33,931 bases of DNA from NCBI GenBank assembly GCA_041694835.1, contig JBGFRZ010000017.1, forward strand, positions 1 to 33,931, given 5' to 3'. The DNA comes from Ignavibacteria bacterium. GTDB lineage: Bacteria > Elusimicrobiota > Endomicrobiia > PHAN01. The translations under genes and the position numbers were made by a program. Shown piece after piece: positions 6,402-32,225 of the stretch; the first letter of the stretch is position 1, and each line of letters begins with the position of its first letter. Under the pieces are notes generated by a model, which saw only the letters and a program-made list of their open reading frames with translations, did no database searches and had not been told where the DNA came from.

Positions 6402-6719
6402 ATGCAGGCTATAGTTTTAATTAATTCACAACAGTTAAAAGTTGGAGTCGGACAGAAGATTATCGTTAATAAAATTGCAGCGAAACCGGGCGAAAGAATA
6501 GAATTTGACAAAGTTCTTTTCTGTGGCGACGGGAAAAACGTTCAAATCGGAAAACCAACTATAAAGAATGCAAAGGTCGTTGCAGAGGTGCTAAAGCAGA
6601 AAAGAGGTCCGAAAGTAATCGTTTTCAAAAAAAGATCCAAGAAGGGTTACAAAAAAACACAGGGCCACAGGCAGTATCTTACAGAGCTTGTTATAAAAGA
6701 TATAAATTTTAGTAGATAG
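6402..6719 (+). CDS. rplU: 50S ribosomal protein L21
   Basis: GPKVIVFKKRSKKGYKKTQGHRQYLT. Confidence 0.96.
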   Translation: MQAIVLINSQQLKVGVGQKIIVNKIAAKPGERIEFDKVLFCGDGKNVQIGKPTIKNAKVVAEVLKQKRGPKVIVFKKRSKKGYKKTQGHRQYLTELVIKDINFSR

Positions 6720-6817
6720 TAGCGGGTAGCGAGTAGGTAGGATATAGGGCAACTGCAAACTTTTTCAAACCGCAATTCCCTATCTACTATCTACCCGCTA
6801 CTCGCTACTATACTACT
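6711..6817. repeat. Heptamer-periodic hairpin (TAGCGRG / CYCGCTA) between rplU and rpmA
   Basis: AGTAGATAGTAGCGGGTAGCGAGTAG pairs with CTACCCGCTACTCGCTACTATACTACT; includes the rplU TAG. Confidence 0.85.
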
Positions 6818-6844
6818 GCTCTGCACTTAAATTAAGGAGAAACT

Positions 6845-7108
6845 ATGGCTCATACAAAATCGCAAGGTTCCACAGCTAACGGCAGAAACTCTCCGGGTCA
6901 GAGGCTCGGCATGAAAACTTTCGGCGGTGAGACGGTTTGTCCCGGCGCCATAATAATGCGCCAGCGCGGCACAAAGGTATACCCCGGTCTAAATGTCGGG
7001 ATTGGCTCGGATTTTACGCTTTTTGCCAAAAAATCTGGCGTTGTCCAGTTCAAGAGGGGAACAAAAGATCGTCTCATTGTAAACGTGATTCCATCCATAA
7101 AAGAGTAG
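6845..7108 (+). CDS. rpmA: 50S ribosomal protein L27
   Basis: [30 protein letters not shown]. Confidence 0.97.
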
Positions 7109-7141
7109 TCGCACCCCGGAACATTAAATGTTCCACTCAAG

Positions 7142-8383
7142 ATGTTTATAGATAAGGCAAGGATAGATGTTATCGCTGGCCGCGGCGGCGATGGTATAAT
7201 GAGTTTCAGGAGAGAAAAATACGTTCCTTACGGCGGACCCTGCGGGGGCAACGGCGGCGATGGGGGAAACGTTTATCTTGTCGCTTCCTCTCATATTAAA
7301 ACACTCCTTGATTTTAAATACAAACCGCACTTTAGAGCAACTGACGGTACAAAAGGACAGTCCTCGAACAGATATGGCAAAACGGGAGAGGATTTAACGA
7401 TCAAAATTCCTGTCGGAACTGTTGTTTACAAAAATAGCGAATTTTTTTATGATTTCGATAAACCTTTCAAGATAAAAAAAGTCGCCGAAGGGGGCCGCGG
7501 CGGGAGAGGGAACCAAGCATTCAAAACGCAAAAAAACATAGCGCCTCATCTTTATGAAAAAGGACAGCCCGGAGAGAAAGCAACGCTCGACTTTGAATTG
7601 AAACTCATCGCCGATGTCGGGATAGTCGGCTTTCCAAATGCGGGCAAATCCACTTTCCTTTCAAGAATATCATCGGCACATCCCAAAATAGCACCCTACC
7701 CTTTTACGACGCTTTTCCCGAATCTTGGTGTGGTAAAGATATGGGAAAAGACGCTTGTTTTCGCGGACATACCAGGCCTTATCGAGGGTTCACACGAGGG
7801 GAAAGGTCTCGGTCATGAGTTTTTGAGACACATAGAGAGAACAAGGATTCTCGTTCACATAGTTGACGGGAGCGTCGGCGGAGCCGAGCCACTGAAAAAT
7901 TACAGAGCCCTTCTGAACGAATTGAAACTCTACTCAAAAAGCATTGCCCAAAAACCAATGCTCGTTGCTTTCAACAAAATGGATTTACCCATCGCTGCAA
8001 AAAATTTAAGGACGTTTGAAAAAAAACTGAAAAAATGCAAAATATTCCCGATTTCTGCGGTCACAGGCGAAGGGATAAATTCCATACTCGAATATACAGC
8101 AAAAATTTATGAAAAACTTCCCGAGTCTAAAATAGAGTATGAGACGAGAAAATTTATTTATGAGCCGACTTACAGGATAATAAAAGAGGGCAATGTCTTT
8201 ACGATAAAAGGGAAAAAAATAGAAGACCTCGCCGCTATGACCGATTTCGAAAATGAAGAGTCATTGAAAAGATTTCAGAGCATCATAAAAAAAATGGGCA
8301 TCGAGGGAGATCTTATAAAATCCGGCATAAAAGAAGGGGCTCTCGTTAGAATCTGGAAGAGAGAATTCGAATTTTTTAAATAA
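7142..8383 (+). CDS. obgE: GTPase ObgE/CgtA
   Basis: Gly-rich Obg domain, ADVGIVGFPNAGKST, YPFTTL, DIPGLIEG, NKMD, C-terminal OCT-like domain. Confidence 0.97.
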   Translation: MFIDKARIDVIAGRGGDGIMSFRREKYVPYGGPCGGNGGDGGNVYLVASSHIKTLLDFKYKPHFRATDGTKGQSSNRYGKTGEDLTIKIPVGTVVYKNSEFFYDFDKPFKIKKVAEGGRGGRGNQAFKTQKNIAPHLYEKGQPGEKATLDFELKLIADVGIVGFPNAGKSTFLSRISSAHPKIAPYPFTTLFPNLGVVKIWEKTLVFADIPGLIEGSHEGKGLGHEFLRHIERTRILVHIVDGSVGGAEPLKNYRALLNELKLYSKSIAQKPMLVAFNKMDLPIAAKNLRTFEKKLKKCKIFPISAVTGEGINSILEYTAKIYEKLPESKIEYETRKFIYEPTYRIIKEGNVFTIKGKKIEDLAAMTDFENEESLKRFQSIIKKMGIEGDLIKSGIKEGALVRIWKREFEFFK

Positions 8384-8386
8384 AAG

Positions 8387-8440
8387 AGACACAAGTCGCA
8401 ATCTTGACTTGTGCACTTATGCCTTATGCTCTTAAGCACT
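8387..8440. repeat. Octamer (CTTGTGCA/CTTATGCT) repeat with hairpin
   Basis: CACAAGTC...GACTTGTG stem plus octamer units; same family as 2229-2268 and 26955-27038. Confidence 0.65.
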
Positions 8441-8453
8441 GGTGAGGAAATGT

Positions 8454-8657
8454 ATGCGAGAATGTAATGTTTCTAAAAAGATGAAGAACTGCAACTGCAC
8501 TTACGAACCATGTCCTCGGAAAGGTATTTGTTGCGAATGCCTTAATTATCACCGTATTCGCTACCAGTTGCCCGCTTGTTATTTCACCACGGAGTTTGAA
8601 AAAACATACGACCGGTCGGTTGAGAATTTCATCAAATGTTACAAAGAATGGATTTGA
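8454..8657 (+). CDS. Small Cys-rich protein (DUF6485-like)
   Basis: [20 protein letters not shown]...QLPACYF...EKTYDRS pattern; GAGG RBS. Confidence 0.75.
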
Positions 8658-9043
8658 GAAGTTTGATTAAGTGGGCAAGGGTCTTTCTGTGGTGCGGACT
8701 GATTTTCTATCTTTCCAGTATCCCCAACCTGAAGACGGAGTTCGGCATATGGGATTTGATATTCAGAAAAATCGCCCACATGTTTGTGTTCGGGCTCCTT
8801 TTTTTATTCTTGTGCTCGGCTATATCGGGAAGTTTTGACATAGCAACCTCGAAAGTATATGTTTTCTCCGTTGTTTTTAGTATAATGTACGCGGTGTCGG
8901 ACGAGTATCATCAGAGTTTTGTTCCGGGCCGCCATGGTTCAGCAGTTGATGTCTTGATAGATTCCGTCGGTATTTTTACCGCTTTGCTCGTAAAAAAGAA
9001 AAAGTCCACAGGTATTTCATATAAAGATGATGAAAATAAATAA
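8648..9043 (+). CDS. VanZ family membrane protein
   Basis: [37 protein letters not shown]. Confidence 0.9.
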
Positions 9044-9050
9044 TAGAAAT

Positions 9051-9316
9051 CAGAGCAGCAGAGGTCAGAGATGAGAGGACAGAGGTCAGGGGACAGAGAT
9101 GAGGGCAGTAGAGAATTAGTGGCTCGTGGTTCGTGGCTCGTGACTCGTGGCTCGTGGCTCGTGGCTCGTGACTCGTGGCTCGTGGCTCGTTGTTCATTTC
9201 CTCCAGCCACCAGCCACAAGTCATCAGTCACTAACAAGTCACCAGACACCAGACACCATACACCAGACACCAGTCACTGTTTACTATTTACTATTTACTA
9301 TTTACTCTTTACTCTT
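9051..9316. repeat. Multi-block heptamer repeat array
   Basis: Blocks of CAGAGRN, CGTGGCT, CCAGCCA/CCAGACA and TACTATT/TACTCTT units. Confidence 0.9.
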
Positions 9317-10099: not shown

Positions 10100-10106
10100 T
10101 ATAATG

Positions 10107-10281
10107 AGAGTGTTGAAAAACCCATCTTTTTCACTTAAAGAGCAGTTTTTTAACGGTTAGAAGTTTCAATCAGACCGCAAAACTCCTCGCTTTGCTCGTC
10201 GGACATTGCGGTCTAAACGATTTCAACTTTTAACCTAAAACTGCCAAATCGTTCAAAAAATTAAGGTTTTTCAACGGTCTA
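10107..10281. mobile_element. MITE, same TIR family as 2047-2366
   Basis: AGAGTGTTGAAAAACC / GGTTTTTCAACGGTCT (14/16), nested internal stems, flanking ATAATG direct repeat. Confidence 0.7.
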
Positions 10282-10290
10282 ATAATGTAA

Positions 10291-10469
10291 GGCTCTTCTC
10301 CAAATGTTGTTGTAGCATTGGGTAAAGATTTTGCAATACCTAAAAACAAAGTATTTTCGCTCATTCTCGTCCCGATAAATCGGGACTGCGAGGCAATCAA
10401 GCGTTCACACTTGATTAAACCCGCTCAAACACTTTGTTTTTATACGCACAACAAAAATGGAGAAGACCC
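10291..10469. mobile_element. Second MITE adjacent to the first
   Basis: TIR GGCTCTTCTCCA / TGGAGAAGACCC, 8-bp TSD TAATGTAA (10283-10290, 10470-10477), internal GTCCCGAT-AA-ATCGGGAC hairpin. Confidence 0.7.
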
Positions 10470-10686
10470 TAATGTAATTTGCCACAGAGAGAGACCCAAA
10501 ATATTTGTTCACGGGACCGCTCACCAGATGATAGTTGGAAAATAATCTGTGGATTGGTGTTCGCTTAGCGTTCCATCTTGCAAAAGTATCATATTAAATT
10601 TAGTTTTACAAAACGAGACTTCACGAAATCCCGTTTCACAAACATTTCTTGTCCATGTCCATCTGTGTTAATCTGTGGTCTTTACT

Positions 10687-11028: not shown

Positions 11029-11031
11029 CAT

Positions 11032-12000
11032 ATGAAAATCCTATTAACTGGAGCGAATGGCTTTATTGGAAGTCACATAGCCGAAAAACTTAGCGTTTCT
11101 GGCCTCGTCGTTAGATGTCTTGTCAGAAAGAGCAGCGACCTCAAATGGCTTAAAAGTTTGAAAGTGGAGTTTACCTACGGAGATATAAACGAGCCGTCGT
11201 CTCTGCAAAAAGCCGTCGAAGGTGCCGATGTCGTCGTTCATGCAGCGGGGGTATTGAGGGCCAGGGACAAAAAAAGATATTATGAAGTAAATCAAATCGG
11301 GACAAAAAACGTCGTAAATGCGGTGAATGACTCTCAAGTAAAAAAAATCATATACATATCGTCTCTCGCTGCTCACGGCCCGTCAAAACAGGGTTCCGCG
11401 AGGAGTTTTTCAGACGAATCCGCTCCAGTTTCTGATTACGGCAGAAGCAAACTTGCGGGAGAGCGCGAGATCAAAAATAATTCAAAAAAACCTTGGACAA
11501 TTCTCGTTCCTTCGGCCGTCTATGGTCCAAGAGACAAGGATATGTTTTTCTTTTTCAAATTGGTCAGTATGGGACTTTCCATAAAATCCCGTCAAAAAAG
11601 ACTCATAAATCTTTCTTATGTCGATGATATCGCTTCTGCCGTTGAAAAAAGCATTCATGCGCCAATAAGCGATTTCAAGACATACTATGTGGCTGACAAA
11701 AAAGTTTTTTCGTGGGAAGATATCTGCAATGTGTTGGCTGTTCTTATGAAAAAAAAAACATTCTCTTTCGCGATTCCCGATTTTTTGCTTTATGTTGCGT
11801 CTTTTTTTTCTGAAAAAATAAGCGCCATTTTCGGAAAAGACGCCGTCTTTAACATCCAAAAAGTCGACGAAATGGTTCAGGACGGATGGCTTCTCAAAGA
11901 CGAAAATGTCACGAGAGATTTAAATATTAAGTTCACCGATTTTTTCTCAGGTGCCCAAAAAACATATAATTGGTATAAAGAAAACCGCTGGCTGAAATAG
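11032..12000 (+). CDS. NAD(P)-dependent epimerase/dehydratase SDR; candidate ceramide reductase
   Basis: TGANGFIG, VVHAAG, YGRSK, VYGPRD; directly upstream of Spt and GNAT genes. Confidence 0.8.
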   Translation: MKILLTGANGFIGSHIAEKLSVSGLVVRCLVRKSSDLKWLKSLKVEFTYGDINEPSSLQKAVEGADVVVHAAGVLRARDKKRYYEVNQIGTKNVVNAVNDSQVKKIIYISSLAAHGPSKQGSARSFSDESAPVSDYGRSKLAGEREIKNNSKKPWTILVPSAVYGPRDKDMFFFFKLVSMGLSIKSRQKRLINLSYVDDIASAVEKSIHAPISDFKTYYVADKKVFSWEDICNVLAVLMKKKTFSFAIPDFLLYVASFFSEKISAIFGKDAVFNIQKVDEMVQDGWLLKDENVTRDLNIKFTDFFSGAQKTYNWYKENRWLK

Positions 12001-12112
12001 AATAGCGAATAGCAAATAGCAAATAGTGAATAGCGAGTAGCGAATAGCGAATAGTGGATAGTGGCTGGTGGCTGGAGGAAATGAGCAACGAACCACGAGC
12101 CACTAACCACTG
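11997..12112. repeat. Heptamer-periodic repeat/hairpin (AATAGCG, GTGGCTG)
   Basis: About 9 AATAGCR units starting at the TAG stop, followed by a GTGGCTG..CGAGCCAC hairpin. Confidence 0.88.
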
Positions 12113-13431: not shown

Positions 13432-14547
13432 ATGGAAATTAAAAAAGTAGAAAACAAAAAGGATTTGTCGGCTTTTGTAAAACTCCCGTGGAAGCTCTAC
13501 AAAAACGACAAAAACTGGGTCCCGCCGCTAGTCGGCGAGTTTAAGGCGCTTCTTGACGAGAAAAAAAATCCGTTCTGGGAACATTCCGCCAAAAAACTTT
13601 TTATCGCTTGCGATGAATCTAATAATTGCGTAGGTCGCGTTGCGGCCATAGTAGACAGAAATTTTCTGGAATTTCATGGCGAACAAACGGGATTTTTTGG
13701 TTTTTTTGAATGTATAGATGACTTATCTGTTGCCAAAGAACTGCTTTCTGCAGCAGAGATGTGGCTTAAAGAAAAAGGCATAACAAAAATTATTGGCCCG
13801 ACGGCACCGTCGACAAATGACGAAATGGGATTGCTTGCTCAAGGATACAACTCGCCGCCTTATTTGATGATGCCATATAATCCGCCGTATTATCACGAAC
13901 TGGTGATTGCCGCGGGCTTTACAAAAGCAAAAGATTTGCTCGCCTACATAATGGAAGAAAAAGACGCCCCTAAAGAGCGTCTTGGAAAAATAGTCAAACT
14001 CGTCGAAAAAAAAGAACCGTTTTTGAAAGTCAGAACAATAAATCCCAAAAACTATAATTCAGAAATATCGAAAATTCATCAGATTTATAACAACGCGTGG
14101 GAAAAAAATTGGGGATTTGTGCCATGGACGCAAAAAGAGTTTTTTGCTCAGTGCGCAAAACTCAAATCGCTTATTCTGGCAGATTTCATTCTTATTGCTG
14201 AAATCAAGGACTTGCCTGTCGGAGTTTTGGTTGGTGTTCCAAATTACAACGAGGTGCTTATTAAATTAAACGGGCGACTGGGTCCTGTGGAGATTTTAAA
14301 GTTCTTATATCTAAAAAATAAAATCAAAACGGCGCGAGTAATGATTATGGGTGTTGTCAAGGAACACCGCAACAAAGGAATTGAGGCACTGATGTATTCT
14401 GAGATAATCAAAAATGGCCCGAAACACGGTATGCTGACCGCCGAGTTTTCGTGGGTTCTTGAAGACAACACGCTCATGTGCCGCGCCGCCGAGATGCTCG
14501 GCGGAAAGCAATATAAAAAATACACGGTTTATGAGAAGAATATATAG
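13432..14547 (+). CDS. GNAT-fold (YghO-like) protein, candidate bacterial ceramide synthase
   Basis: LPWKLYKNDKNWVPPL, GFFGFFEC, MMPYNPPYY, NAWEKNWGFVP, SWVLEDN. Confidence 0.75.
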   Translation: MEIKKVENKKDLSAFVKLPWKLYKNDKNWVPPLVGEFKALLDEKKNPFWEHSAKKLFIACDESNNCVGRVAAIVDRNFLEFHGEQTGFFGFFECIDDLSVAKELLSAAEMWLKEKGITKIIGPTAPSTNDEMGLLAQGYNSPPYLMMPYNPPYYHELVIAAGFTKAKDLLAYIMEEKDAPKERLGKIVKLVEKKEPFLKVRTINPKNYNSEISKIHQIYNNAWEKNWGFVPWTQKEFFAQCAKLKSLILADFILIAEIKDLPVGVLVGVPNYNEVLIKLNGRLGPVEILKFLYLKNKIKTARVMIMGVVKEHRNKGIEALMYSEIIKNGPKHGMLTAEFSWVLEDNTLMCRAAEMLGGKQYKKYTVYEKNI

Positions 14548-14712
14548 AGAATAGAGGACAGAGAACAGAAAAAACGGGTAGCGAAGAACGCAAAGCGGAG
14601 AGCGTAAAGCGTGAACGGCTTTAAACTCTTTTCGCTTCCCGCTTTCCGATATACACTTTCCGCTTTATGGCGTTTTATTCTCTCACCCCTCATCTCTGTC
14701 CTCTCACCTCTG
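14545..14712. repeat. Nested heptamer-periodic hairpin
   Basis: Outer AGAGAAY/AGAGGAC versus CTCTCAC/CTCTGTC arms; inner AAAGCGK versus CGCTTTC arms. Confidence 0.8.
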
Positions 14713-14717: not shown

Positions 14718-15965
14718 ATGCACAAAGGTATAATTGAAAAGTACAGAATTTTTTTGCCTGTCACAGCCAGGACGCCCGTGGTGACGCTTTTAGAAGGAAA
14801 TACCCCTTTGATAAGAGCGAACAATATTGAGCAACTGCTTAAATTCGAAGGCGAGATTTACTTAAAATACGAGGGAATGAATCCAACAGGTTCTTTCAAG
14901 GACCGCGGAATGACACTGGCTATATCAAAAGCCGTTGAAGAAAAATCAAAAGTTGTAATCTGCGCCTCCACCGGCAATACATCCGCATCTGCCGCCGCAT
15001 ACGCCGCCCGGGCGAATATAAGATGTATTGTTTTGATACCTTCTGGTTCAATCGCTCTCGGGAAACTTTCTCAGGCGCTTATTCACGGAGCGGAAGTTTT
15101 TGCGGTAAGAGGCAACTTTGACGAGGCGTTAAAAATAGTAAAAGGACTTTCAGAGAAATATCCGATAACAATGGTAAACTCTTTGAATCCTTACAGAATC
15201 GAAGGACAAAAAACCGCCGCTTTTGAAATTATTGAAACACTCGGGTGCGCTCCTACTCATCAGTTTATGCCCGTCGGAAACGCAGGCAACATCACCGCTT
15301 ACTGGAAGGGCTATAAGGAATCCTGTTTTACGGGATTCAAGTTTGGAGATAATAGTTTAGAGTTTAGAGGACAGAGGAGAGGGGATAGGGGACAGAGAAC
15401 AGAGAACAGAGGACAGAGAAGAGAAAAGAGAAAAGAGAAAAGAGAAAAAACTCATCTCTCATCTCTCATCTCTCACCCCTCAACTCTCAACTCTCAACTC
15501 TCAACTCGTGGCAATTTATTGCCACGAATGTTCGGTTTTCAAGCCGCAGGCGCCGCTCCGATTGTGCTCGGTAGACCCGTCGAGAAACCCAAGACCATCG
15601 CGACTGCAATCAAAATCGGAAACCCCGCTTCATGGAAAAGCGCGATTGCCGCCCGCGACGAATCGAAAGGGGTTATAGACAGCGTTACCGACGACGAGAT
15701 ACTTGATGCATACAAACTTCTTGCGAATTCGGAAGGAGTTTTCTGCGAGCCCGCCTCGGCTGCATCCATTGCAGGGTTGATTAAATATACCCGAAAAGGT
15801 TTTTTTACTGAATCTCTTCATCGCTCCAGCGCTCCATCTCCGATAGTGGTTTGTATTCTCACCGGACACGGCTTAAAAGACCCCGACTGCGTCGTAAAAA
15901 ATGTAAAAAAGCCAAAAGTTGTCGAATGTAAAACCGAAAAAATTGCTAAAATGATAGGATTTTAA
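14718..15965 (+). CDS. thrC: Threonine synthase carrying an in-frame repeat insertion
   Basis: [52 protein letters not shown]. Confidence 0.95.
15353..15507. repeat. In-frame heptamer-periodic hairpin inside thrC
   Basis: AGAGGAC/AGAGAAC/AGAGAAA arm then CTCATCT/CTCAACT arm; encodes [40 protein letters not shown]. Confidence 0.9.
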
Positions 15966-19683: not shown

Positions 19684-19691
19684 CGGGTAAT

Positions 19692-24984: not shown

Positions 24985-27900
24985 ATGCATTGCATAGGAA
25001 TAGATATCGGCTCTGTTGCAACAAAGATAGTTGTAGTCGATGAAAACGCCATGATAGTAGAAAGACATTATCAGAGGCATTTCGGCCACCCCGCCTCAAA
25101 AACTCTTGAAGTTTTGAAAGAAATTAAAAAAAAATATCCGAAAGTATCTATATCTACGACGGGCTCTGCATGTTCTTTTATATCCAACGCTCTGAATTTA
25201 AAACCAACCAATGAGGTTGTCGCTCAAGGTTATTCTACAAGAAAACTTTTTCCGCACATAAAAACGATAATAGAGATGGGGGGAGAAGATTCAAAACTTA
25301 TAATTCTTAAAGATGGTATGATAAAGCAGTTTTCAATGAACTCCGTCTGCGCCGCAGGCACCGGCTCTTTCCTTGAGCAACAGGCGGAGCGACTCAATTT
25401 GAGCATAGAAGAGTTCGGACAACTCGCGGAAAAATCAAAAAGACCTTCAAAGATAGCCGGAAGGTGCAGCGTTTTTGCAAAATCAGATATGATACACCTT
25501 CAACAGATAGCGACGCCTCTTGAGGATATCGTCTCCGGGCTTTGCTTTGCTGTCGCAAGAAACTTCAAAGGAAGTATAGCCCGAGGGGTTGATATGAAGC
25601 CCCCCATATCGTTTCAGGGTGGCGTTGCGGCTAACAACGGAATGGTAAGGGCTTTCAGGGAAGTTTTCGATGCCCCCGCTCTTTTTATACCCCCCGACTT
25701 CTACTTTATGGGAGCCATAGGTGCCGTCTTGAAGGATATGGACGAGAACCGCATAAATTTTCTTGAAGTTGAAAAACAAATCGGGAAACTTCAAGAGTTT
25801 ATTTCATCGAGGATTTATGATGAAAAAGGATATCCTCCGCTCGGCTCCGACGATTTTTCTCAGAGACATTTAAAAAACAGCAACGACTCAATAAACCCGT
25901 TGTCAATTACTCAGCATCCGTCGCCGCCATTAAAAGTGTATCTTGGCATAGACGTCGGCTCAATAAGCACTAACCTCGCTCTTGTGGACGAAGGCGGAAA
26001 ACTCATCGCAAAACGATATCTGATGACAGCGGGGCGTCCTATAGAAGCCGTCAAAAAAGGTCTTGAGGAGTTATATTCCGAAGTTGGAGAAAACGTCTTT
26101 ATCTGCGGCGTAGGCACGACGGGCTCCGGCAGATATATGATAGCAGATTATGTCGGCGCTGACATGGTTAAAAATGAAATCACCGCGCAAGCCCGCGCTG
26201 CTATTTTTATAGACCCGAGTGTTGACACTATATTTGAAATAGGAGGACAGGACTCAAAATACATCTCTATAAAAGACGGTGCGATAGTTGATTTTGAGAT
26301 GAATAAAGCATGTGCCGCTGGAACAGGTTCATTTCTTGAAGAGCAGGCGGAGAAACTCAACATATCTATAAAAGATGAATTTTCCGAGCGCGCATTTGGC
26401 TCCGCATCTCCCTGCCCATTGGGTGAAAGATGCACGGTATTTATGGAAAACTCTCTTATGGCGAACCTTCAGAGAGGAGCAAAAATTAACGACCTTCTCG
26501 CCGGGCTTTCATACTCTATTGCGCAAAACTATATAAATAGGGTTGTAGTGGGCAAACCAATAGAAAAAAACATATTTTTTCAGGGAGGCGTGGCTTTTAA
26601 TAAATCCGTCGTCGCGGCGTTTGAAAAATATCTCGGAAAAAAAATCACTGTTCCGCCCGACCACGATGTGACAGGAGCAATAGGCATGGCTCTTATAGCA
26701 AAAGAGAGCATGAAAAATGGAGGCACGAACTTCAAAGGATTTGAACTTTCAAAGAGGCATTATGAGATAAACTCTTTTGAGTGCAACGCCTGCCCGAATG
26801 TCTGTGAGATAAATAGGGTCAGCATCGCCGGGGAAGAAAAGGAGCTGTTTTACGGTGGCCGCTGCGAGAAATACGACGAAAGATATTTGAAGAAAAACAA
26901 CCTTCCCGACCTTTTTGCGTTCAGAGATGAAATGCTCTGGAAGGCACATAATAAAAGAGCACAAGAGCACAAGAGCACAAGGGCACAAGAGCACAAGAGC
27001 GCAAGAGCGCAAGAGCACAAGAGCGAAAGGGCGCAAGATACCCGCGCCTCCCCACTAAAAATCGGGATTCCTTATATCTTTTATTTCCAAGATTTTCTTC
27101 CTTTCTGGTCAACTTTTCTATGGGAACTTGGTTTTGAGGTTGTTATTTCTCCGAGAACAAACAAACCAATAATAAACCTCGGTCTTGAAAATATCTTCTC
27201 CGAAGCATGCTTTCCGGTTAAAGTTGCACACGGACATATCAAACACTTAAAAGACGTCGGAGTAGATTTCATATTTCTTCCAAGTTTCATTGATTTAGAT
27301 GGTGTAGAGGCAGGATTTGGATGTCCATACATACAAACCATTCCTTATGTGTCAAAAGTTGCCTTGGGAGATGTGAGCCCCGTTAGAGATAAGAAGACAG
27401 AGGCGTCGGCAGACGATAAAAGGCGACCGACTTTTGACGGAATAAATCTCTTGACTCCCGCATTGGATTTCAGTCGCGGCAAAGGTTATATTATTAAAGA
27501 ACTATTCAGGGTTTTTGGAAGTTATGTTTCAAAGTCAGATATCAAAAAGGCGCTCTCGCAGGCGGCGGCGTCTCAAGAGACGTTTAATGAAGCCATAAGG
27601 GAGAAGGGCAGGGAGATAATAGATGGACTTGGGATTGGTGCCAGAGCAATAGTAGTCGTCGGGCGCTCTTACAACGCATTTGATTGCGGGGTCAATCTTG
27701 ACATACCGAAAAAACTCTCCCAACTTGAGACGATTTCAATCCCGCTCGATTTCCTGCCACTTGAAGAAGAGACACTGGATGAGAAATATAATATGTACTG
27801 GTTTTCAGGACGCAAAATTTTGAAAGCTGCAAAGGTAATAAAGAAAAATCCAAATCTTTTCCCTATCTACATAGGAAACTTCTCCTGCGGTCCGGATTCG

Positions 27901-29277
27901 TTCATTTTGAAATACTTCAAAGAAGAACTCGGGGAAAAACCGTTTCTTCATATAGAGATAGACGAACACAGCGCCGCCGCCGGTGCAATAACCAGATGTG
28001 AGGCGTTTCTTGATAGTATAGAAAATCAGAAATTAGAAATTAGAAAACAGAAGTTAGAAAAAAATGATGTCAAAAATTTACCAAATATCGGTCATGACTT
28101 AAAGCGAACCATCTATCTCCCTCGTATGTCAGACCATGCATTTGGCGTCAAGGCCGCTTTTGAGTGCTGCGGAATGAAAGCCGAGGTTTTGCCAGAGTCC
28201 GACAGAGAGTCAGTTGAAATCGGTAAAAAATATGTCTCCGGAAAAGAGTGCTATCCGTATCTCGTCACAACCGGCGACATGCTTAAAAAGGTATTTTCTT
28301 CAGGTTTCATGCCGGAAAAATCCGCATTCTTTATGCCGTCGGGTTCGGGGCCATGCAGATTCGGTCAGTACAATGTTTCTCACCGACTCCTGCTTGAAAA
28401 TCTCGGCTTTAAAGATGTCAGTGTATATTCGCCGAATCAAGACGGTGGATTTTACACTGAACTCGGTGCTCTCGGCGCCTCTTTCGCTCTGAAGGTGTGG
28501 GAGGGAGTAGTAGCATACGAGTTTTTGCTTAAATCTCTCCACGAAACAAGACCGTATGAAAAAAAGAGCGGCGACACTGATATCCTTTATAATTTTTATT
28601 TAGAAAAAATTTACGACTGTCTGCTTTCCGATAATTCGCTTAAAAATCTTTTAAAAAAAATGAAAGACGATTTTTCTTCCATAGTTTCTGAAAGAGTTGA
28701 GAGAAAACCAATTATAGGTATCGTCGGAGAGATATTCGTGAGAGCTCACAGGTTTTCAAACCAGGACTTAATAAGAAAGATAGAATCACTCGGCGCCGAA
28801 GCATGGCTTTCGCCTGTTCCCGAGTGGATATACTATCTCAACAAGATATCTATCAGAAGGACTTTTATAAAAAGTCACTGGCGCGACTTTATCGTAACAT
28901 CCCTGAAGGATTACTATCAGAAAAAGATAGAGAAAAAATTTGGGAAATCGTTAAGAGATTTTTTAAAGAGCATAAATGAGCCGGAGGTGTCTGATATATT
29001 TGAGAAGGCATCGCCTTATCTTGACGATTCCTTTGAAGGTGAAGCGATATTAAGTATAGGGAAGACGATAGATTTTATTGAAAAAGGCGCATCAGGCGTA
29101 ATAAATGTTATGCCATTCGGCTGTATGCCCGGAACGATTGTAACAGCGTTGATTAAAGCGGTAAGCCAGGACCACGACGTGCCTTGCATAAGCATTCCGT
29201 ACGACGGAACGGAGTCCACATCAACAAATCTCCATCTTGATACTTTCGTAGAATCCATAAAGACCACCCGCGGATGA
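24985..29277 (+). CDS. CoA-substrate-specific enzyme activase (two BcrAD/BadFG ATPase domains plus dehydratase-like domains)
   Basis: Two GIDxGS...GGxDSK...CAAGTGSFLE units, CNACPNVC, CFPVKVAHGH, FSCGPDSF, GPCRFGQY, PFGCMP. Confidence 0.88.
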   Translation: MHCIGIDIGSVATKIVVVDENAMIVERHYQRHFGHPASKTLEVLKEIKKKYPKVSISTTGSACSFISNALNLKPTNEVVAQGYSTRKLFPHIKTIIEMGGEDSKLIILKDGMIKQFSMNSVCAAGTGSFLEQQAERLNLSIEEFGQLAEKSKRPSKIAGRCSVFAKSDMIHLQQIATPLEDIVSGLCFAVARNFKGSIARGVDMKPPISFQGGVAANNGMVRAFREVFDAPALFIPPDFYFMGAIGAVLKDMDENRINFLEVEKQIGKLQEFISSRIYDEKGYPPLGSDDFSQRHLKNSNDSINPLSITQHPSPPLKVYLGIDVGSISTNLALVDEGGKLIAKRYLMTAGRPIEAVKKGLEELYSEVGENVFICGVGTTGSGRYMIADYVGADMVKNEITAQARAAIFIDPSVDTIFEIGGQDSKYISIKDGAIVDFEMNKACAAGTGSFLEEQAEKLNISIKDEFSERAFGSASPCPLGERCTVFMENSLMANLQRGAKINDLLAGLSYSIAQNYINRVVVGKPIEKNIFFQGGVAFNKSVVAAFEKYLGKKITVPPDHDVTGAIGMALIAKESMKNGGTNFKGFELSKRHYEINSFECNACPNVCEINRVSIAGEEKELFYGGRCEKYDERYLKKNNLPDLFAFRDEMLWKAHNKRAQEHKSTRAQEHKSARAQEHKSERAQDTRASPLKIGIPYIFYFQDFLPFWSTFLWELGFEVVISPRTNKPIINLGLENIFSEACFPVKVAHGHIKHLKDVGVDFIFLPSFIDLDGVEAGFGCPYIQTIPYVSKVALGDVSPVRDKKTEASADDKRRPTFDGINLLTPALDFSRGKGYIIKELFRVFGSYVSKSDIKKALSQAAASQETFNEAIREKGREIIDGLGIGARAIVVVGRSYNAFDCGVNLDIPKKLSQLETISIPLDFLPLEEETLDEKYNMYWFSGRKILKAAKVIKKNPNLFPIYIGNFSCGPDSFILKYFKEELGEKPFLHIEIDEHSAAAGAITRCEAFLDSIENQKLEIRKQKLEKNDVKNLPNIGHDLKRTIYLPRMSDHAFGVKAAFECCGMKAEVLPESDRESVEIGKKYVSGKECYPYLVTTGDMLKKVFSSGFMPEKSAFFMPSGSGPCRFGQYNVSHRLLLENLGFKDVSVYSPNQDGGFYTELGALGASFALKVWEGVVAYEFLLKSLHETRPYEKKSGDTDILYNFYLEKIYDCLLSDNSLKNLLKKMKDDFSSIVSERVERKPIIGIVGEIFVRAHRFSNQDLIRKIESLGAEAWLSPVPEWIYYLNKISIRRTFIKSHWRDFIVTSLKDYYQKKIEKKFGKSLRDFLKSINEPEVSDIFEKASPYLDDSFEGEAILSIGKTIDFIEKGASGVINVMPFGCMPGTIVTALIKAVSQDHDVPCISIPYDGTESTSTNLHLDTFVESIKTTRG
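26955..27038 (+). repeat. In-frame octamer tandem repeat, about 10 x AAGAGCAC
   Basis: Ten 8-mer units encoding RAQEHKST/RAQEHKSA/RAQEHKSE. Confidence 0.92.
27378..27442. repeat. In-frame CCCCGTTAGAGAT element (copy 3, degenerate right end)
   Basis: Left end identical to 20337-20349; right end TTTGACGGA; encodes PVRDKKTEASADDKRRPTFDG. Confidence 0.65.
28027..28060 (+). repeat. In-frame heptamer repeat (AGAAATT)
   Basis: CAGAAATTAGAAATTAGAAAACAGAAGTTAGAAA, encodes QKLEIRKQKLE. Confidence 0.7.
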
Positions 29278-29772: not shown

Positions 29773-29819
29773 CTTTTTAAACTTATTATAAAACTCCAAA
29801 ATTTTTAGGAGAGAACAAA

Positions 29820-30854
29820 ATGAAAAATATTATATATTTGCTTTTATTTACAATCTTTTGGGTAGAAATTTATGCAAAAGAATCAGTTTACAAATCCGCT
29901 CCAATAGGAACTTATGGTGGGCGGATGAATCCCGACTTAAGCGTAGTTGTTGATATTCAAGGGTTGTTTACAGATGATATAGAATATGCTGCTGAAAGAA
30001 ACAAGGTTCTTCTTCCGGGAGTTGAAATTGTTTTTGGTGGTTATCTTTATCCCGGAATAAGAGGTGATATTGTTACTATTTTTGAAGATGGTGGAGCAGA
30101 GTTTCACCTTGAAGAAGCATATATTTCATTTTTGGAATTGCCGATAGGAACGCAACTAATTACAGGTCGAAAACTCCTTGACTTCGGCAGACTTAATCAG
30201 AGCCATCCGCACCACTGGAAGTTTGTTGATATGCCTCTTGCGTTGGAAAATGTCTTTGGGCATCACCCATGGTACGGCGACCTGGTAAACTTAAACTTTT
30301 TAATTCCCAACCCAGTGGACATTTACGCCAAAGGAAGTTTCAGTGTAATCAATGCTATGCAAATGCAGGCGGATGCGATACAGTGGAATGGAAGGGTCTT
30401 TAACTCCAGGGTTTCAGTTGACTTGCCGTGGCTCAATTCTATAGTTGGTTACAGTCGTGCATTTGATGAAATGGGCTATTCAACAGTTCAAGGGATTGAA
30501 TTGACTTATAAAGAGCAATGGCCTGGATTTATTAAAAGACGGCTTAGACTACAAAATGAATATGTATGGGCTAAATCCGGAGATGTAAAAAGAGCCCCCG
30601 GGTTGTATAGTATGTTGGCGTTTGCTCTTGACCAATATACAGAATTAGGACTGCGATGCGACGGCTTGTTTAGCGCCAACAACCACAAAATAAAAACATG
30701 GGCCGGTAATTTGTTTGCTACATACTATTTTACAGATTCATTATATCTGAGGGGACAATATCAATACAAGCAAGAGAATGAAAAAACGAAAAACAAGTTT
30801 TATTTACAACTTGTCTGGGGCATAGGTCCCCATGCACACAAACTGGAGGACTGA
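29820..30854 (+). CDS. Putative outer-membrane beta-barrel associated with metal uptake
   Basis: Signal peptide, NPDLSVV, LEEAY, FGRLNQSHPHHW, C-terminal LQLVWGIGPHAH; upstream of the metal ABC transporter. Confidence 0.7.
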   Translation: MKNIIYLLLFTIFWVEIYAKESVYKSAPIGTYGGRMNPDLSVVVDIQGLFTDDIEYAAERNKVLLPGVEIVFGGYLYPGIRGDIVTIFEDGGAEFHLEEAYISFLELPIGTQLITGRKLLDFGRLNQSHPHHWKFVDMPLALENVFGHHPWYGDLVNLNFLIPNPVDIYAKGSFSVINAMQMQADAIQWNGRVFNSRVSVDLPWLNSIVGYSRAFDEMGYSTVQGIELTYKEQWPGFIKRRLRLQNEYVWAKSGDVKRAPGLYSMLAFALDQYTELGLRCDGLFSANNHKIKTWAGNLFATYYFTDSLYLRGQYQYKQENEKTKNKFYLQLVWGIGPHAHKLED

Positions 30855-30857
30855 AAT

Positions 30858-30965
30858 CAGCAGATAGCGGATAGTAGGGAGGGGATTGTAATCAGTTATC
30901 GGTAATCAGTTATCGGTAAAAAATAGGCGTTCGGTGACCACTGATTACAGATAACCGATTACTGA
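30858..30965. repeat. Heptamer-periodic hairpin (GTWATCR / YGATWAC)
   Basis: GTAATCAGTTATCGGTAATCAGTTATCGG pairs with CTGATTACAGATAACCGATTACTG. Confidence 0.85.
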
Positions 30966-31010
30966 ACATTATATCAGGAGGTAAAAACAATGGAAAACTT
31001 AATAAGCAAT

Positions 31011-31157
31011 TGGACACAGATAAACGCAAATGAAAAAAGATTTGAACCACGAAAGCGCAAAAACACGAAAATACTTGTAAAGAATTTTGTGATTTCTAAT
31101 TTTCGTGATTTCGTGGTAAAGTTTTTAATCTGCGATAATCCTGAAAATCTGCGTCCA
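31011..31157. repeat. Nested palindromic element (ACRCAGAT / CACGAAA types)
   Basis: TGGACACAGA...TCTGCGTCCA outer arms; ACCACGAAA..CACGAAA / TTTCGTGATTTCGTGGT inner arms. Confidence 0.75.
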
Positions 31158-31202
31158 GATAAATTTTTTGACATTAACTTTTCAAATTATAGGAGGATTA
31201 AA

Positions 31203-32123
31203 ATGAAAAACTTAAACAAAATTTTAGGTTTGTTGTTAGCGACGATTGTATTTCCGACTTTCGCTTTTTCGTCGGAAAAACTTGATATAGTAACAACCAC
31301 CCTTGAAGCGGCCGACTTTGTCAGAGAAGTTGGCGGCGATAAAGTCAATGTCCATTCTCTCTACAACGGACAGTTTGATTTTCATTTTTATGAGCCCCGT
31401 CCAACAGAAGCAGTCAGGTTAAGAAAAGCAGATGGTATTGTTGTATATGGCCTTGCAACCGATGCCTGGTTTCAGCCACTTATTGAAGCGGCACGGAACG
31501 CCAATATATCATTTGGCGCCAAGGGCTATATAGATATGGCTGACAGAGTCGGTGTTCTTAAGGTTCCCGCGGGCGGAATTGATGGTCGCATGGGTCATGT
31601 TCATCCTTACGGTGCCTGTGGCTATCTTTACACACCGGAGAATAGCAAAATTGCGATTATGAACATCTATGAGGGACTCATCCGGCTTGACCCTGCTAAC
31701 AAGGACTACTATGAAAAAAACAAAAATGAATATCTCTCAAAAATTGACGAAACATTTGAAAAACTCAATCAGAAAATGTCGCCACACAGAGGAACAAAAA
31801 TTGTTCAGTTCCATGAGACATGGCATTATTTTGCCGAGACATTTGGTTTGGAAATAGTTGCGGCTCTTGAACCAAAACCAGGGATACCGCCATCACCCGT
31901 GCATCTGGCAAGTGTGGTAGACATTATTCGTGAAAAAGAGCCAAAATTTATCATGGTTGAGCCATATTATCCGAAAAGACCTGTCAGATTTGTTGCAGAA
32001 CAGACAGGTATAAAAGAAATCAGAGCTCCGCACTATGTTGGCGGTGTGAAAGGAATAAATACATTTATTGGTAATCTTGAGTATGTAATCGGTGAAATAA
32101 TAAAAGTGCTGGAAAAACAATAA
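31203..32123 (+). CDS. Zn/Mn ABC transporter substrate-binding protein (ZnuA/TroA-like)
   Basis: Signal peptide after AGGAGG, DFHFYEPRP, GHVHPYG, FHETWHYF, EPKPGIPPSPVH. Confidence 0.88.
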   Translation: MKNLNKILGLLLATIVFPTFAFSSEKLDIVTTTLEAADFVREVGGDKVNVHSLYNGQFDFHFYEPRPTEAVRLRKADGIVVYGLATDAWFQPLIEAARNANISFGAKGYIDMADRVGVLKVPAGGIDGRMGHVHPYGACGYLYTPENSKIAIMNIYEGLIRLDPANKDYYEKNKNEYLSKIDETFEKLNQKMSPHRGTKIVQFHETWHYFAETFGLEIVAALEPKPGIPPSPVHLASVVDIIREKEPKFIMVEPYYPKRPVRFVAEQTGIKEIRAPHYVGGVKGINTFIGNLEYVIGEIIKVLEKQ

Positions 32124-32145
32124 TTTTTAATGAATAAAAAATAAT

Positions 32146-32225
32146 TGAACGCAGATGAACGCAGAAACAACTTTGATAAACGCAGATTAAAGCAATTATA
32201 AACTCATCTGCAAAAATCTGCGTCC
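32146..32225. repeat. AACGCAGAT-type repeat hairpin
   Basis: TGAACGCAGATGAACGCAGA..AAACGCAGAT versus ATCTGC..ATCTGCGTCC. Confidence 0.75.

What the first reader, a model, noticed from the sequence alone, without database searches (positions are those of the whole stretch)
6711..32225. Dispersed family of periodic (7/8/9-mer) hairpin elements that sit at stop codons and inside ORFs
Seen: about ten loci (6711, 8387, 9051, 11997, 14545, 15353, 26955, 28027, 30858, 31011, 32146) consist of short tandem units. Most have a 5' arm and a loosely complementary 3' arm in the same register, so they would fold into hairpins with regularly spaced mismatches. Unit sequences differ between loci while the architecture is kept, and three begin on the TAG stop of the upstream gene (rplU, SDR, GNAT). 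From recall, similar repeats flank four-helix-bundle (IVS-like) and GxxExxY genes in other genomes, but none of those genes is in this window. Inference: these may be empty sites or non-autonomous units of an undescribed repeat-templated mobile or RNA-processing system.
Basis: partly seen in the sequence, partly recalled or inferred. Interest (0 to 1): 0.75.

Follow-up and report, generated by a model that had tools for sequence, protein, structure and literature searches.

The report
Periodic-stem hairpin elements, IVS-like, gene-less
The window is peppered with inserted DNA hairpins whose stems are built from tandem 7-, 8- or 10-base units, and these are gene-less copies of elements that elsewhere carry a small four-helix-bundle or GxxExxY gene, the same kind of element known as the intervening sequence of 23S rRNA.

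Summary
All 11 named loci carry tandem arrays. Six fold into strong hairpins, three weakly and two not at all. Genome-wide there are 1100 tandem-repeat rows against 38 in a shuffled genome, mostly period 7, 8 and 10; period 9 is rare.

In this genome 11 of 12 four-helix-bundle genes and the single GxxExxY gene visibly sit between complementary periodic arms that start at the upstream stop codon. The same holds in 20 of 24 loci of related genomes and 64 of 70 metagenome loci, with unit sequences that differ almost everywhere.

Two window elements look like internal-deletion derivatives of gene-carrying copies. Relatives lack the rplU-rpmA hairpin and the in-frame insert in thrC, so these are insertions. 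The genome's own 23S rRNA gene carries a 132-nt gene-less hairpin with heptamer arms.

The closest known thing is the S23p-type 23S rRNA intervening sequence, which RNase III cuts and which has heptamer repeats in one published case.

Cleavage, mobility and the origin of the periodicity are inferred, not shown. Mismatches show no sense-strand G-U excess, so complementarity seems to be kept at the DNA level.

Verdict: a new variant of a known kind, of high interest.

The parts
6710..6817 (.). Type A hairpin in the rplU-rpmA spacer. The 5' arm is built of TAGTAGA / TAGTAGCG-type heptamers and holds the rplU stop codon (6717-6719). The loop is about 28 nt. The 3' arm is built of CTATCTA / CGCTACT units.
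   Evidence: I1: 34-nt arms, 85% complementary; z -10.3. Ten of 11 relatives have a 27-36 nt spacer here. The arms match the C8 four-helix-bundle element 25/25 and 31/39.
8384..8437 (.). Short 8-mer element directly after the obg stop codon (AAGAGACACAAG ... ACTTGTGC / CTTATGCT units). It forms a weak hairpin.
   Evidence: z about -2. By eye the units belong to the AGAGCACA / ACTTGTGC family that flanks four-helix-bundle genes on C52 and C81.
9047..9313 (.). Composite layered element: CAGAGGT-type array, then GTGGCTC x10, a loop GTTGTTCATTTCCTCCAG, a CCAGCCA / CCAGACA array, then ACTATTT x5. It runs into the 5' end of lipoprotein ORF 9071-10099.
   Evidence: inner hairpin z -3.7 / -5.9. The own genome holds 65 BLAST matches. 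The core family has 24 places, in both orientations.
11998..12111 (.). GAATAGC x8 array that starts on the TAG of the SDR gene, followed by an inner hairpin GTGGCTGGTGGCTGG-AGGAAATGAGCAACGAA-CCACGAGCCAC. The hairpin is a core-family copy in the opposite orientation.
   Evidence: I10; z -6.3. It aligns to the ends of the C81:10783 four-helix-bundle element: 5' arm 22/27, AAATGA, 3' junction 19/22.
14545..14711 (.). Nested element that fills the spacer from the GNAT-gene TAG to just before the likely thrC start (M18, nt 14718). Outer arms are AGAGAAT / AGAGGAC ... TCTCTGTCCTCTCACCTCT. Inner arms are AAAGCGG ... CTTTCCG.
   Evidence: I14, I15; inner part weak, z -1.4 / -2.4. Relatives match thrC only from residue 13 to 32 onwards, most from 16-20.
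15353..15510 (+). Two-arm element (AGAGGAC / AGAGAAA arm, then CTCATCT / CTCAACT arm) read in frame inside thrC. It adds roughly 45-55 residues (…[17 protein letters not shown]…[18 protein letters not shown]…).
   Evidence: z about -2. All 12 of 12 relatives lack it. It lies in a length-variable loop between [11 protein letters not shown] and LPxMMGFQA.
26955..27038 (+). Single-arm AAGAGCAC x10 array read in frame (…RAQEHKSTRAQEHKS…). It lies between the BcrAD_BadFG and DUF2229 domains of the 1430-aa activase-like protein.
   Evidence: no hairpin, z -1.35. Insertion status is untested: only 1 of 12 relatives has a homolog, and that aligns downstream of the array.
28019..28060 (+). Weak period-7/21 A-rich stretch inside the same ORF. 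It is probably not a member of the family.
   Evidence: MFE 0, z +0.57.
30855..30962 (.). Type A hairpin directly after the TGA of ORF 29820-30854. Arms are GTAATCAGTTATCG x2.3 and ACTGATTACAGATAACCGATTAC.
   Evidence: I5: 23-nt arms, 91%; z -3.7 / -6.6.
31046..31117 (.). Hairpin with CACGAAA-type units (ACCACGAAAGCGCAAAAACACGAAA ... TTTCGTGATTTCGTGGT), upstream of the likely true ZnuA start.
   Evidence: I7; z -2.6 / -4.5.
32146..32226 (.). Type B hairpin with the repeated core ACGCAGAT (TGAACGCAGA x2 ... AAACGCAGATT ... CATCTGC ... ATCTGCGT). It is a gene-less relative of the arms around GxxExxY genes.
   Evidence: z -3.6 / -5.3. The 10-mer family AACGCAGATG has 33 rows genome-wide. GxxExxY loci carry ACRCAGAT-type arms.
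2137..2268 (.).
33854..33910 (.). CACAGAGA x3 array followed by a small hairpin, GTAGCGGTGGGATTACTATCCCACAAATCG.
   Evidence: Similar small hairpins sit inside heptamer arrays on C87, C62 and C71.

Best explanation
The window's loci are mostly gene-less members of a dispersed family of inserted hairpin elements of the rRNA-intervening-sequence (IVS) type.

Anatomy. An element is a long, imperfect inverted repeat whose two arms are tandem arrays.
- Type A has 7- or 8-nt units that vary from copy to copy. Full copies carry a TIGR02436 four-helix-bundle gene in the loop.
- Type B has a repeated ACRCAGAT-type core at a spacing of about 10 nt. Full copies carry a TIGR04256 GxxExxY (PD-(D/E)XK-like) gene.
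- The 5' arm is C-poor on either strand. It often supplies TAG, TAA or TGA, and because the period is not a multiple of three the stop appears in all three frames. An element can therefore sit flush against the end of a gene. Arms without stop triplets can be read through when they land in a tolerant protein loop.

Shown here:
- the architecture and its association with the two gene families across many genomes;
- absence of the elements at orthologous sites in relatives;
- multi-copy spread of identical gene-carrying copies;
- derivation of two window elements from gene-carrying copies;
- a gene-less copy inside the 23S rRNA gene.

Inferred:
- Once transcribed inside operons, the stem is a double-stranded RNA substrate for RNase III, as for published rRNA IVSs. 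This would keep the insertion nearly harmless.
- Arrays grow and shrink by replication slippage.
- The two arms are kept complementary by a DNA-level process, either copying between arms or synthesis of both from one template, rather than by RNA-level compensatory selection.
- How the elements move, and whether the two small proteins move them, is unknown.
For: (1) Arms around the genes in this genome. PF05635 gives 12 near-full-length genes plus fragments, and PF13366 gives 1 gene. By eye in the printed flanks, 11 of the 12 four-helix-bundle genes and the GxxExxY gene lie between complementary periodic arms, and the 5' arm begins on the upstream TAA or TAG. TRF reports arrays on both sides for 9 of the 13 loci. 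The 12th gene, on C7, lies about 115 nt from its contig end, so no 3' arm can be seen.

(2) Generality.
- In relatives, 20 of 24 loci score above 24.1. That threshold is the 95th percentile of a mismatched-partner control computed.
- In metagenomes, 64 of 70 loci with enough flank exceed that control's 95th percentile and 46 exceed its maximum. The best arm period is 7 or 8 in nearly all.
- For GxxExxY, 9 of 13 loci score above 24.1, and the arms share an ACRCAGAT-type core.

(3) Enrichment over chance.
- 1100 TRF rows against 38 in the shuffled genome.
- 153 of 793 arrays have a complementary partner within 250 nt, against 5 of 793 with random partners.
- 241 of 607 clusters are intergenic, against 352 of 3035 random placements.
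- 40 of 607 clusters start within -3 to +6 nt of a stop codon, against 19 of 3035 random placements.

(4) The elements are insertions.
- The rplU-rpmA spacer is 27-36 nt in 10 of 11 relatives and 86 nt in one, against about 140 nt here.
- The thrC insert is missing in 12 of 12 relatives.

(5) Spread and decay.
- Three 99-100% identical four-helix-bundle copies, plus one at 87-88%, have the same AGAGCACA arms at different loci.
- A second family with GAATAGC arms has one copy with an internal TGA, one decayed copy, and two copies at contig ends.
- Window elements 6711 and 12050 align to the arms and inner junctions of the C8 and C81 gene-carrying elements.
- One core family has 24 places in the genome, in both orientations.

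(6) The rRNA link.
- The genome's 23S rRNA gene has a 132-nt insertion with GGTAGAA / CCCTCTA heptamer arms.
- An RNase III gene is present.
- In the one published case read, the S23p-type IVS has tandem heptamers GACAGAT of variable number, and RNase III cuts at the first repeat (PMC4990558, passages).

(7) Dose. Period-7/8/10-type arrays per 200 kb track the number of four-helix-bundle genes (gene counts, array counts):
- G000, 12 genes: 76 arrays.
- G021, 4 genes: 27.
- G001, 1 gene: 21.
- G025, 4 genes: 17.
- G030, 1 gene: 15.
- G023, 0 genes: 5.
- G019, 0 genes: 4.
This is seven genomes only, and they are kin, not independent.

(8) Fixed handedness and stops.
- The 5' arm has G>C in 38 of 41 hairpins with a loop of 150 nt or less; 1 is reversed and 2 tie.
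- Across 89 gene-carrying loci the 5' arms are 9% C.
- 40 of 89 5' arms have stops in all three frames, against 19.6 expected from shuffled arms.
- TAG is the adjacent stop in 13 of 33 cases, against 305 of 1560 genome-wide.
Against: - No RNA data exist, so cleavage, excision and even transcription of the elements are untested (no run listed).
- Mismatches in 89 arm pairs show no excess of sense-strand G-U (142) over A-C (169); binomial p = 0.14.
- Sense and antisense folds are equally stable: 20 against 14 of 34, not significant. In the window the antisense strand folds better at 8 of the 9 loci folded on both strands.
- There is thus no signature of selection on an RNA structure.
- Most arrays are lone. 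Only 43 of 580 cluster regions fold beyond the control's 1st percentile, and mean MFE per nt is no better than for random windows. The hairpin description therefore fits a minority of arrays.
- No target-site duplication was seen at four copies of one family (by eye).
- Neither small protein resembles a known transposase, and the four-helix-bundle family has no known activity.
- The alignment of empty to full elements is convincing in the arms but short and noisy in the inner junctions.
- The genome is a 89-contig assembly, so repeat copy numbers within arrays may be wrong.
Confidence: 0.6

Rival explanations
1. Host-serving operon punctuation. The hairpins are selected cis-elements, like REP elements or 3' stabilising stem-loops. 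They would set mRNA stability or processing or insulate translation between cistrons, and they would grow by slippage. The small genes merely exploit such sites.
For: - 33 of 38 hairpins lie between co-directional genes, much as the background of 1294 of 1471 gene pairs.
- Several fill the whole spacer from a stop codon to the next start.
- Stops occur in all frames in 40 of 89 5' arms.
- Elements also lie between tRNA genes in a relative (L122).
Against: - Orthologous spacers in relatives work without them, at 27-36 nt.
- The elements also land inside thrC and the 23S rRNA gene.
- They occur in both orientations.
- Only 5 of 41 are followed by a T5 tract.
- There is no sense-strand bias in stability or wobble pairs.
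- Their number tracks the number of four-helix-bundle genes.
Confidence: 0.15
2. Plain microsatellite dynamics. The arrays are long simple-sequence repeats made in place by polymerase slippage, of which heptamers are the commonest class in bacteria. The hairpin and gene associations would be side effects.
For: - Most arrays have no partner arm: 640 of 793 fall below score 24.
- Mean fold energy of array regions equals that of random windows.
- Heptamer repeats are reported as the most abundant class of long repeats in many genomes. This is Mrazek 2007, as summarised in PMC4679880 (passages).
Against: - Complementary partners are about 30 times more frequent than with random partners.
- Handedness is 38:1.
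- Conserved loops and cores recur at 24 places.
- 64 of 70 unrelated metagenome loci show arms of matching unit on both sides of one gene family.
- Whole elements are absent from relatives.
Confidence: 0.05
3. Protein-binding arrays. The ring-shaped four-helix-bundle oligomer binds the periodic arms, one unit per subunit, much as TRAP binds spaced triplets (recalled). The periodicity would be a binding code for regulation or packaging rather than a by-product.
For: - The closest solved structures, 2gsc and 2rld, each have five chains in the entry. A published passage describes the Xanthomonas protein as a homopentameric toroid (PMC4990558).
- The median aligned arm is 33 nt, about 4.7 heptamers.
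- The period clusters on the protein tree: 8 changes against 12.7 in shuffles, with 0 of 500 shuffles as low.
- The proteins are distantly similar to the DGR accessory protein Avd, below cut-off.
Against: - Unit sequences differ almost completely between loci whose proteins share the conserved motif.
- The period switches between 7 and 8 eight times among 57 loci, and common descent alone predicts some clustering.
- Gene-less copies vastly outnumber genes.
- Arm lengths range from about 16 to over 130 nt.
Confidence: 0.1

Closest known systems
ORF-containing 23S rRNA intervening sequences (S23p / 23S_rRNA_IVP type; Coxiella, Leptospira, Xanthomonas and others)
   Same: - A PF05635 / TIGR02436 four-helix-bundle gene lies in the loop of a long terminal inverted repeat.
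- Gene-less and gene-carrying forms both exist.
- Tandem heptamers of variable number lie in the stem of the one case read (PMC4990558, passages).
- This genome's own 23S rRNA gene carries a gene-less periodic hairpin.
   Different: - The window copies and most copies in this genome lie between or inside protein-coding genes, not in rRNA helices 25 or 45.
- There are hundreds per genome.
- Stems are layered arrays of several unit families.
- The 5' arm doubles as the stop codon of the upstream gene.
- A second gene family, GxxExxY, occupies the same kind of site.
- RNase III cleavage is not shown here.
Heptamer tandem repeats of bacteria: STRR of heterocystous cyanobacteria (recalled), long simple-sequence repeats (Mrazek 2007, via PMC4679880), TAACTGA repeats of Beggiatoaceae, Cyanobacteria and Bacteroidetes (PMC4679880, passages)
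   Same: - Head-to-tail 7-nt units.
- Mostly intergenic, next to start or stop codons.
- Stops in all three frames for suitable units.
- Occasional in-frame copies inside ORFs.
- Patchy phylogenetic spread.
   Different: - Those reports treat direct repeats. The passages read do not describe paired inverted arrays or a link to four-helix-bundle genes ('four helix' occurs 0 times in PMC4679880).
- Here arrays come in complementary pairs with fixed handedness and host two gene families.
- This genome is probably not cyanobacterial. The best named Obg match is 51%, to an Endomicrobium MAG.
REP / REPIN elements with their RAYT gene (PMC3116915; search listing and abstract only)
   Same: - Many short palindromic extragenic copies.
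- A few gene copies flanked by the same repeats in inverted orientation.
- Location within operons.
   Different: - The flanked genes here are not Y1 transposases.
- The arms are tandem arrays with variable units rather than one conserved palindrome. The type B core is somewhat conserved.
- Copies also lie inside ORFs and in rRNA.
Rickettsia palindromic elements (recalled from Ogata et al. 2000; no call)
   Same: Palindromic repeats inserted in frame into protein-coding genes at tolerant surface positions, as in thrC here.
   Different: They have no sequence relation, no tandem periodic arms and no associated small gene, and they come from another phylum.
MITEs such as Correia elements (recalled)
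   Same: - Terminal inverted repeats.
- Non-autonomous deletion derivatives.
- Intergenic spread.
- Co-transcription with neighbouring genes.
   Different: - No target-site duplication was seen (by eye).
- The full-length form has no transposase.
- The arms are internally periodic.

Membership tests
S23p-type 23S rRNA intervening sequence | Inserted in a 23S rRNA helix (classically helix 25 or 45) | tested here: not met
   The window elements lie between or inside protein genes. A separate 132-nt periodic hairpin does lie in the 23S rRNA gene, at model position about 1895.
S23p-type 23S rRNA intervening sequence | Terminal inverted repeats that form a long stem | tested here: met
   Six of 11 window loci have z of -3.5 or lower on at least one strand. 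Inverted repeats I1, I5, I7 and I10 support this.
S23p-type 23S rRNA intervening sequence | PF05635 / TIGR02436 ORF in the loop | tested here: not met
   None in the window. Twelve are present elsewhere in the genome, and 11 of them visibly sit in such loops.
S23p-type 23S rRNA intervening sequence | Stem cut by RNase III | not testable with these tools
   An RNase III gene is present. No sequencing run was listed.
Heptamer long simple-sequence repeats / STRR | Head-to-tail units of 7 nt, many arrays per genome, more than chance | tested here: met
   239 period-7 arrays, and 1100 TRF rows against 38 in the shuffled genome.
Heptamer long simple-sequence repeats / STRR | STRR proper: defined unit sequences in heterocystous cyanobacteria (recalled) | tested here: inconclusive
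   The units here differ from those I recall for STRR.
MITE | Terminal inverted repeats plus target-site duplication | tested here: inconclusive
   Inverted termini such as TAGAGCACAAG...CTTGTGCTCTA are seen. No duplication is seen at four copies by eye.
MITE | Internal-deletion derivative of an autonomous element that encodes a transposase | tested here: not met
   A deletion-derivative relation is suggested for two families. However, the full elements encode only TIGR02436 or TIGR04256 proteins, not a known transposase.
REPIN-RAYT system | Single-copy Y1-transposase (RAYT) gene flanked by the repeats | tested here: not met
   The flanked genes are four-helix-bundle and GxxExxY. RAYT itself was not searched for.
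Intrinsic terminator | GC-rich stem followed by a T tract | tested here: not met
   A T5 tract lies within 14 nt downstream in 5 of 41 hairpins.
CRISPR array | Repeats of 25-40 nt separated by unique spacers | tested here: not met
   The units are 7-10 nt and head-to-tail without spacers.

The most novel reading that the evidence does not exclude
The arms may not be inherited sequence but made anew at each insertion. Both 3' ends of a break would be extended with the same short G-rich, C-poor unit in telomere-like, templated or slippage-driven addition, and then joined around a loop or a gene.

This would explain at one stroke:
- why the two arms carry the same unit in inverted orientation;
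- why the G-rich strand always runs 5'->3' towards the centre (38 to 1);
- why unit counts differ between arms;
- why units differ between copies of one gene family;
- why stems are layered like an onion;
- why mismatches carry no RNA-strand signature.

The four-helix-bundle protein (a distant Avd relative) and the GxxExxY nuclease-fold protein would be the element's own factors. That would define a new class of mobile element, and possibly the origin of bacterial heptamer repeats.
Probability: 0.1. Interest if true: 0.92.

Novelty: new variant of a known kind. Interest (0 to 1): 0.75.

Why it matters
The finding ties together three things that the papers I read treat separately:
- the unexplained abundance of heptamer tandem repeats in some bacteria;
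- the rRNA intervening sequences with their orphan S23p, or four-helix-bundle, gene;
- palindromic insertions read through inside proteins.

If it holds, the intervening sequence is only the rRNA-borne tip of a widespread family of hairpin elements that colonise operons at stop codons.

Practical consequences:
- Such elements extend ORF calls and hide true start codons, as for the ZnuA, thrC and lipoprotein genes here.
- They break assemblies, since contigs C87 and C41 end inside copies.
- They may explain why 23S_rRNA_IVP genes turn up inside cas operons (PMC3936711, passage). The legend of PMC10910872 lists the family among novel CRISPR associations.

The fixed handedness, the non-multiple-of-three periods and the two unrelated cargo genes give concrete handles for finding the mechanism.

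Tried and rejected
- Public sequencing runs for window 6300-9400: none was listed and no RNA holder was listed.
- Rfam over the whole window gave no match at gathering score. ARAGORN found no tRNA or tmRNA.
- Sense-strand RNA selection was tested in two ways, by mismatch types and by sense against antisense MFE. Neither showed a bias.
- The intrinsic-terminator reading is rejected: T5 tracts follow 5 of 41 hairpins, and there is no enrichment between convergent genes.
- A reverse-transcriptase partner was sought. No RVT_1 match was found in a 97%-complete genome.
- Activase insertion status: only 1 of 12 relatives has a homolog, and it aligns past the array, so this stays open.
- A cyanobacterial identity, my first guess from the heptamers, is rejected. 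The genome is 1.9 Mb, the best named Obg hit is Endomicrobium at 51%, and the class holds 1.1-3.1 Mb genomes. The name 'Endomicrobiia / Elusimicrobiota' is my inference only.
- The mean fold energy of all array regions is no better than that of random windows. 'Every array is a hairpin' is therefore rejected.
- My first script for shuffled folds timed out and was replaced by strand folding.
- The 15-sequence alignment A1 was too divergent for the locus scan. The 5-sequence alignment A2 worked.
- Literature: eight searches found no paper describing periodic inverted arrays around TIGR02436 or TIGR04256 genes outside rRNA. The library lacks most subscription journals, and no supplements were read.

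Full report
**1. What the window is**

The window is a whole contig (C73) of a 1.9-Mb, 89-contig genome that is 97% complete and 42.5% G+C. All large ORFs lie on the + strand. They encode housekeeping proteins: GlyQ, Tmk, HolB, MetG, L21, L27, Obg, ThrC, ThiG/H/E, RuvX, YceG, a ZnuABC transporter and others.

The best named Obg relatives are only 51% identical or less, with an Endomicrobium MAG first. The nearest unnamed relatives share 58%. 'Endomicrobiia-like' is my inference.

**2. The observation**

TRF finds arrays at each of the 11 named loci. Genome-wide there are 1100 rows against 38 in a shuffled genome. They reduce to 793 non-overlapping arrays, or 607 clusters covering 36 kb.

The periods are 7 (239 arrays), 8 (86), 10 (60) and their multiples. 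Period 9 has only 8 arrays.

A limited set of unit families recurs: ACAGAGG, AATAGCG, AAATAGC, GTGGCTC, AGTATGT, the 8-mers AAGAGCAC and AAGTGCAC, and the 10-mer AACGCAGATG.

Of the 11 loci, six fold into hairpins far better than shuffles, three fold weakly and two do not fold.

**3. The link to the small genes**

The genome has 12 near-full-length PF05635 (TIGR02436, four-helix-bundle) genes plus fragments, and one PF13366 (TIGR04256, GxxExxY) gene. None is in the window.

In the printed flanks, 11 of the 12 four-helix-bundle genes and the GxxExxY gene lie between an upstream array and a downstream array of the complementary unit. The 5' arm begins on the TAA or TAG of the upstream gene, and the 3' arm ends in TTA or CTA close to the next start. 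TRF calls arrays on both sides at 9 of the 13 loci. The gene on C7 is too close to its contig end for a 3' arm to be seen.

Complementary array pairs fall into two loop classes: 0-150 nt, which are empty, and 344-431 nt, which hold the gene.

The same layout holds more widely:
- In relatives of other genera and families, 20 of 24 loci score above the control threshold. Two single-contig genomes are among the relatives, so this is not an assembly artefact.
- In metagenome loci encoding 40-60% identical proteins, 64 of 70 exceed the 95th percentile of a mismatched-partner control and 46 exceed its maximum.
- Units differ from locus to locus, while the best lag is 7 or 8 almost everywhere.
- GxxExxY genes of the class are flanked by inverted arms in 9 of 13 loci. 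These arms repeat an ACRCAGAT-type core, which is the 10-mer family of this genome and of window element 32146-32226.

**4. The window elements are inserted, and some are derived from full copies**

- The rplU-rpmA spacer is 27-36 nt in 10 of 11 relatives, against about 140 nt here.
- ThrC of all 12 relatives lacks the roughly 50-residue segment encoded by element 15353-15510. The segment sits in a length-variable loop between two conserved blocks.
- Element 6710-6817 shares 25 of 25 and 31 of 39 arm positions with the four-helix-bundle element on C8.
- Element 12050-12111 keeps the 5' arm, the AAATGA of the ribosome site and start codon, and the 3' junction of the element at C81:10783. The inner matches are short.
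- That core occurs at 24 places, in both orientations, usually inside a layered set of arrays in a preferred order.
- Four-helix-bundle elements themselves spread and decay. Three copies are 99-100% identical, one is 87-88%, and the other proteins are 28-53% identical. One family has an internal stop, a decayed copy, and two copies on which contigs end.

**5. Rules of the anatomy**

- Handedness. The 5' arm is purine- and G-rich and C-poor on either strand, in 38 of 41 short-loop hairpins. Over 89 gene-carrying loci the 5' arms are 9% C.
- Stops. Because stop codons contain no C and the periods are not multiples of three, 40 of 89 5' arms carry stops in all three frames, against 19.6 expected from shuffled arms. 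TAG is over-used next to elements: 13 of 33, against 305 of 1560.
- Read-through. Arms without stop triplets (AGAGGAC, GTGGCTC, AAGAGCAC) are the ones found read through inside ORFs. Several other large ORFs contain whole two-arm elements in frame. Only thrC was checked against orthologs.
- Context. Hairpins lie mostly between co-directional genes, as does the background, and rarely precede a T tract.

**6. RNA or DNA?**

The stems are equally stable on both strands. Arm mismatches show no excess of sense-strand G-U over A-C.

This does not exclude an RNA role. It does mean that complementarity is not being maintained by RNA-level compensatory change. A DNA-level process fits better: copying between arms, or a common origin of both arms.

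No RVT_1 domain was found.

**7. Closest known**

The S23p-type intervening sequence of 23S rRNA is the same unit: a four-helix-bundle gene inside a long inverted repeat that RNase III cuts. In the one paper read, the stem region holds tandem GACAGAT heptamers of variable number (PMC4990558, passages).

This genome's own 23S rRNA gene carries a 132-nt gene-less hairpin with GGTAGAA / CCCTCTA arms, beside two group I introns. It also has an RNase III gene.

Heptamer repeats as such are known (PMC4679880, passages). 23S_rRNA_IVP genes have been noted between cas genes and in CPR rRNA insertions (passages). None of these passages mentions periodic arms.

Eight searches found no description of the general architecture. 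The library lacks most subscription journals.

**8. Dose**

In 200-kb samples, period-7/8/10-type arrays number as follows (gene counts, array counts):
- this genome, 12 four-helix-bundle genes: 76 arrays;
- G021, 4 genes: 27; G025, 4 genes: 17;
- G001, 1 gene: 21; G030, 1 gene: 15;
- G023, no gene: 5; G019, no gene: 4.

These are seven related genomes, so the trend is only indicative.

**9. Verdict**

The elements are best read as gene-less members of an IVS-like family of periodic-stem hairpin elements.

Still inferred are RNase III processing, the mode of spread, the role of the two proteins and the reason for the 7/8/10-nt periodicity.

The boldest reading not excluded is that the arms are synthesised anew at each insertion.

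Noticed in passing
G000:C31:14794-16492 (L146): The partial 23S rRNA gene holds two group I introns (Rfam RF00028, 69.7 and 54.4 bits). It also holds a 132-nt gene-less insertion at model position about 1895 whose arms are heptamers (GGTAGAA.. / CCCTCTA..).
   Followed up: partly
window 33882-33910; also C87:~27150, C62:~15760, C71:~1290: A small conserved hairpin, GTAGCGG(C/T)GGGATT(G/A)CTATCCC(G/A)CAAAT, sits inside or beside heptamer arrays. It recalls the small dispersed repeats reported within heptamer repeats of Nostoc (recalled, not checked).
   Followed up: no
window 9071-10099: The only in-frame start of this lipoprotein-like ORF lies inside the repeat element. The hydrophobic stretch before the LVGC lipobox is encoded by the ACTATTT x5 array.
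   Followed up: no
window 10100-10640: A 540-nt gene-free stretch with several inverted repeats (I4, I11, I18). It has no Rfam match and no Pfam-bearing ORF.
   Followed up: no
window 20336-20422 and 2082-2110: Another hairpin type. It has perfect 14-nt arms ACCCCGTTAGAGAT / ATCTCTAACGGGGT right after thiE, and a similar CCCCGTTAGAT...ATCTAACGGGG after tmk.
   Followed up: no
G000 contigs C87 (end) and C41 (end): Both contigs stop about 80 nt into identical copies of a four-helix-bundle gene with GAATAGC arms. The assembly breaks on these elements, so their true copy number is higher than counted.
   Followed up: partly
L122 (G016:C12) and L128 (G020:C66): In relatives, four-helix-bundle elements lie directly between or after tRNA genes.
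   Followed up: no
window 5981-6259: A small ORF with weak RelE / ParE / HigB-like toxin matches, below the Pfam cut-offs for two of three families. It lies just upstream of rplU.
   Followed up: no
window 17795-20336: A thiG-thiH-thiE cluster with no TPP riboswitch detected at Rfam gathering score anywhere in the window.
   Followed up: no
G000, many ORFs (for example C28:56625-57641, C49:18965-22120, C6:7683-9329, C87:3846-5174, C56:6580-8805): Whole two-arm elements are read in frame as ...RGQRTEDRGQ...HLSSLTSHLSPL... peptides. Some may be artificial fusions of neighbouring genes produced by my crude ORF calls.
   Followed up: partly
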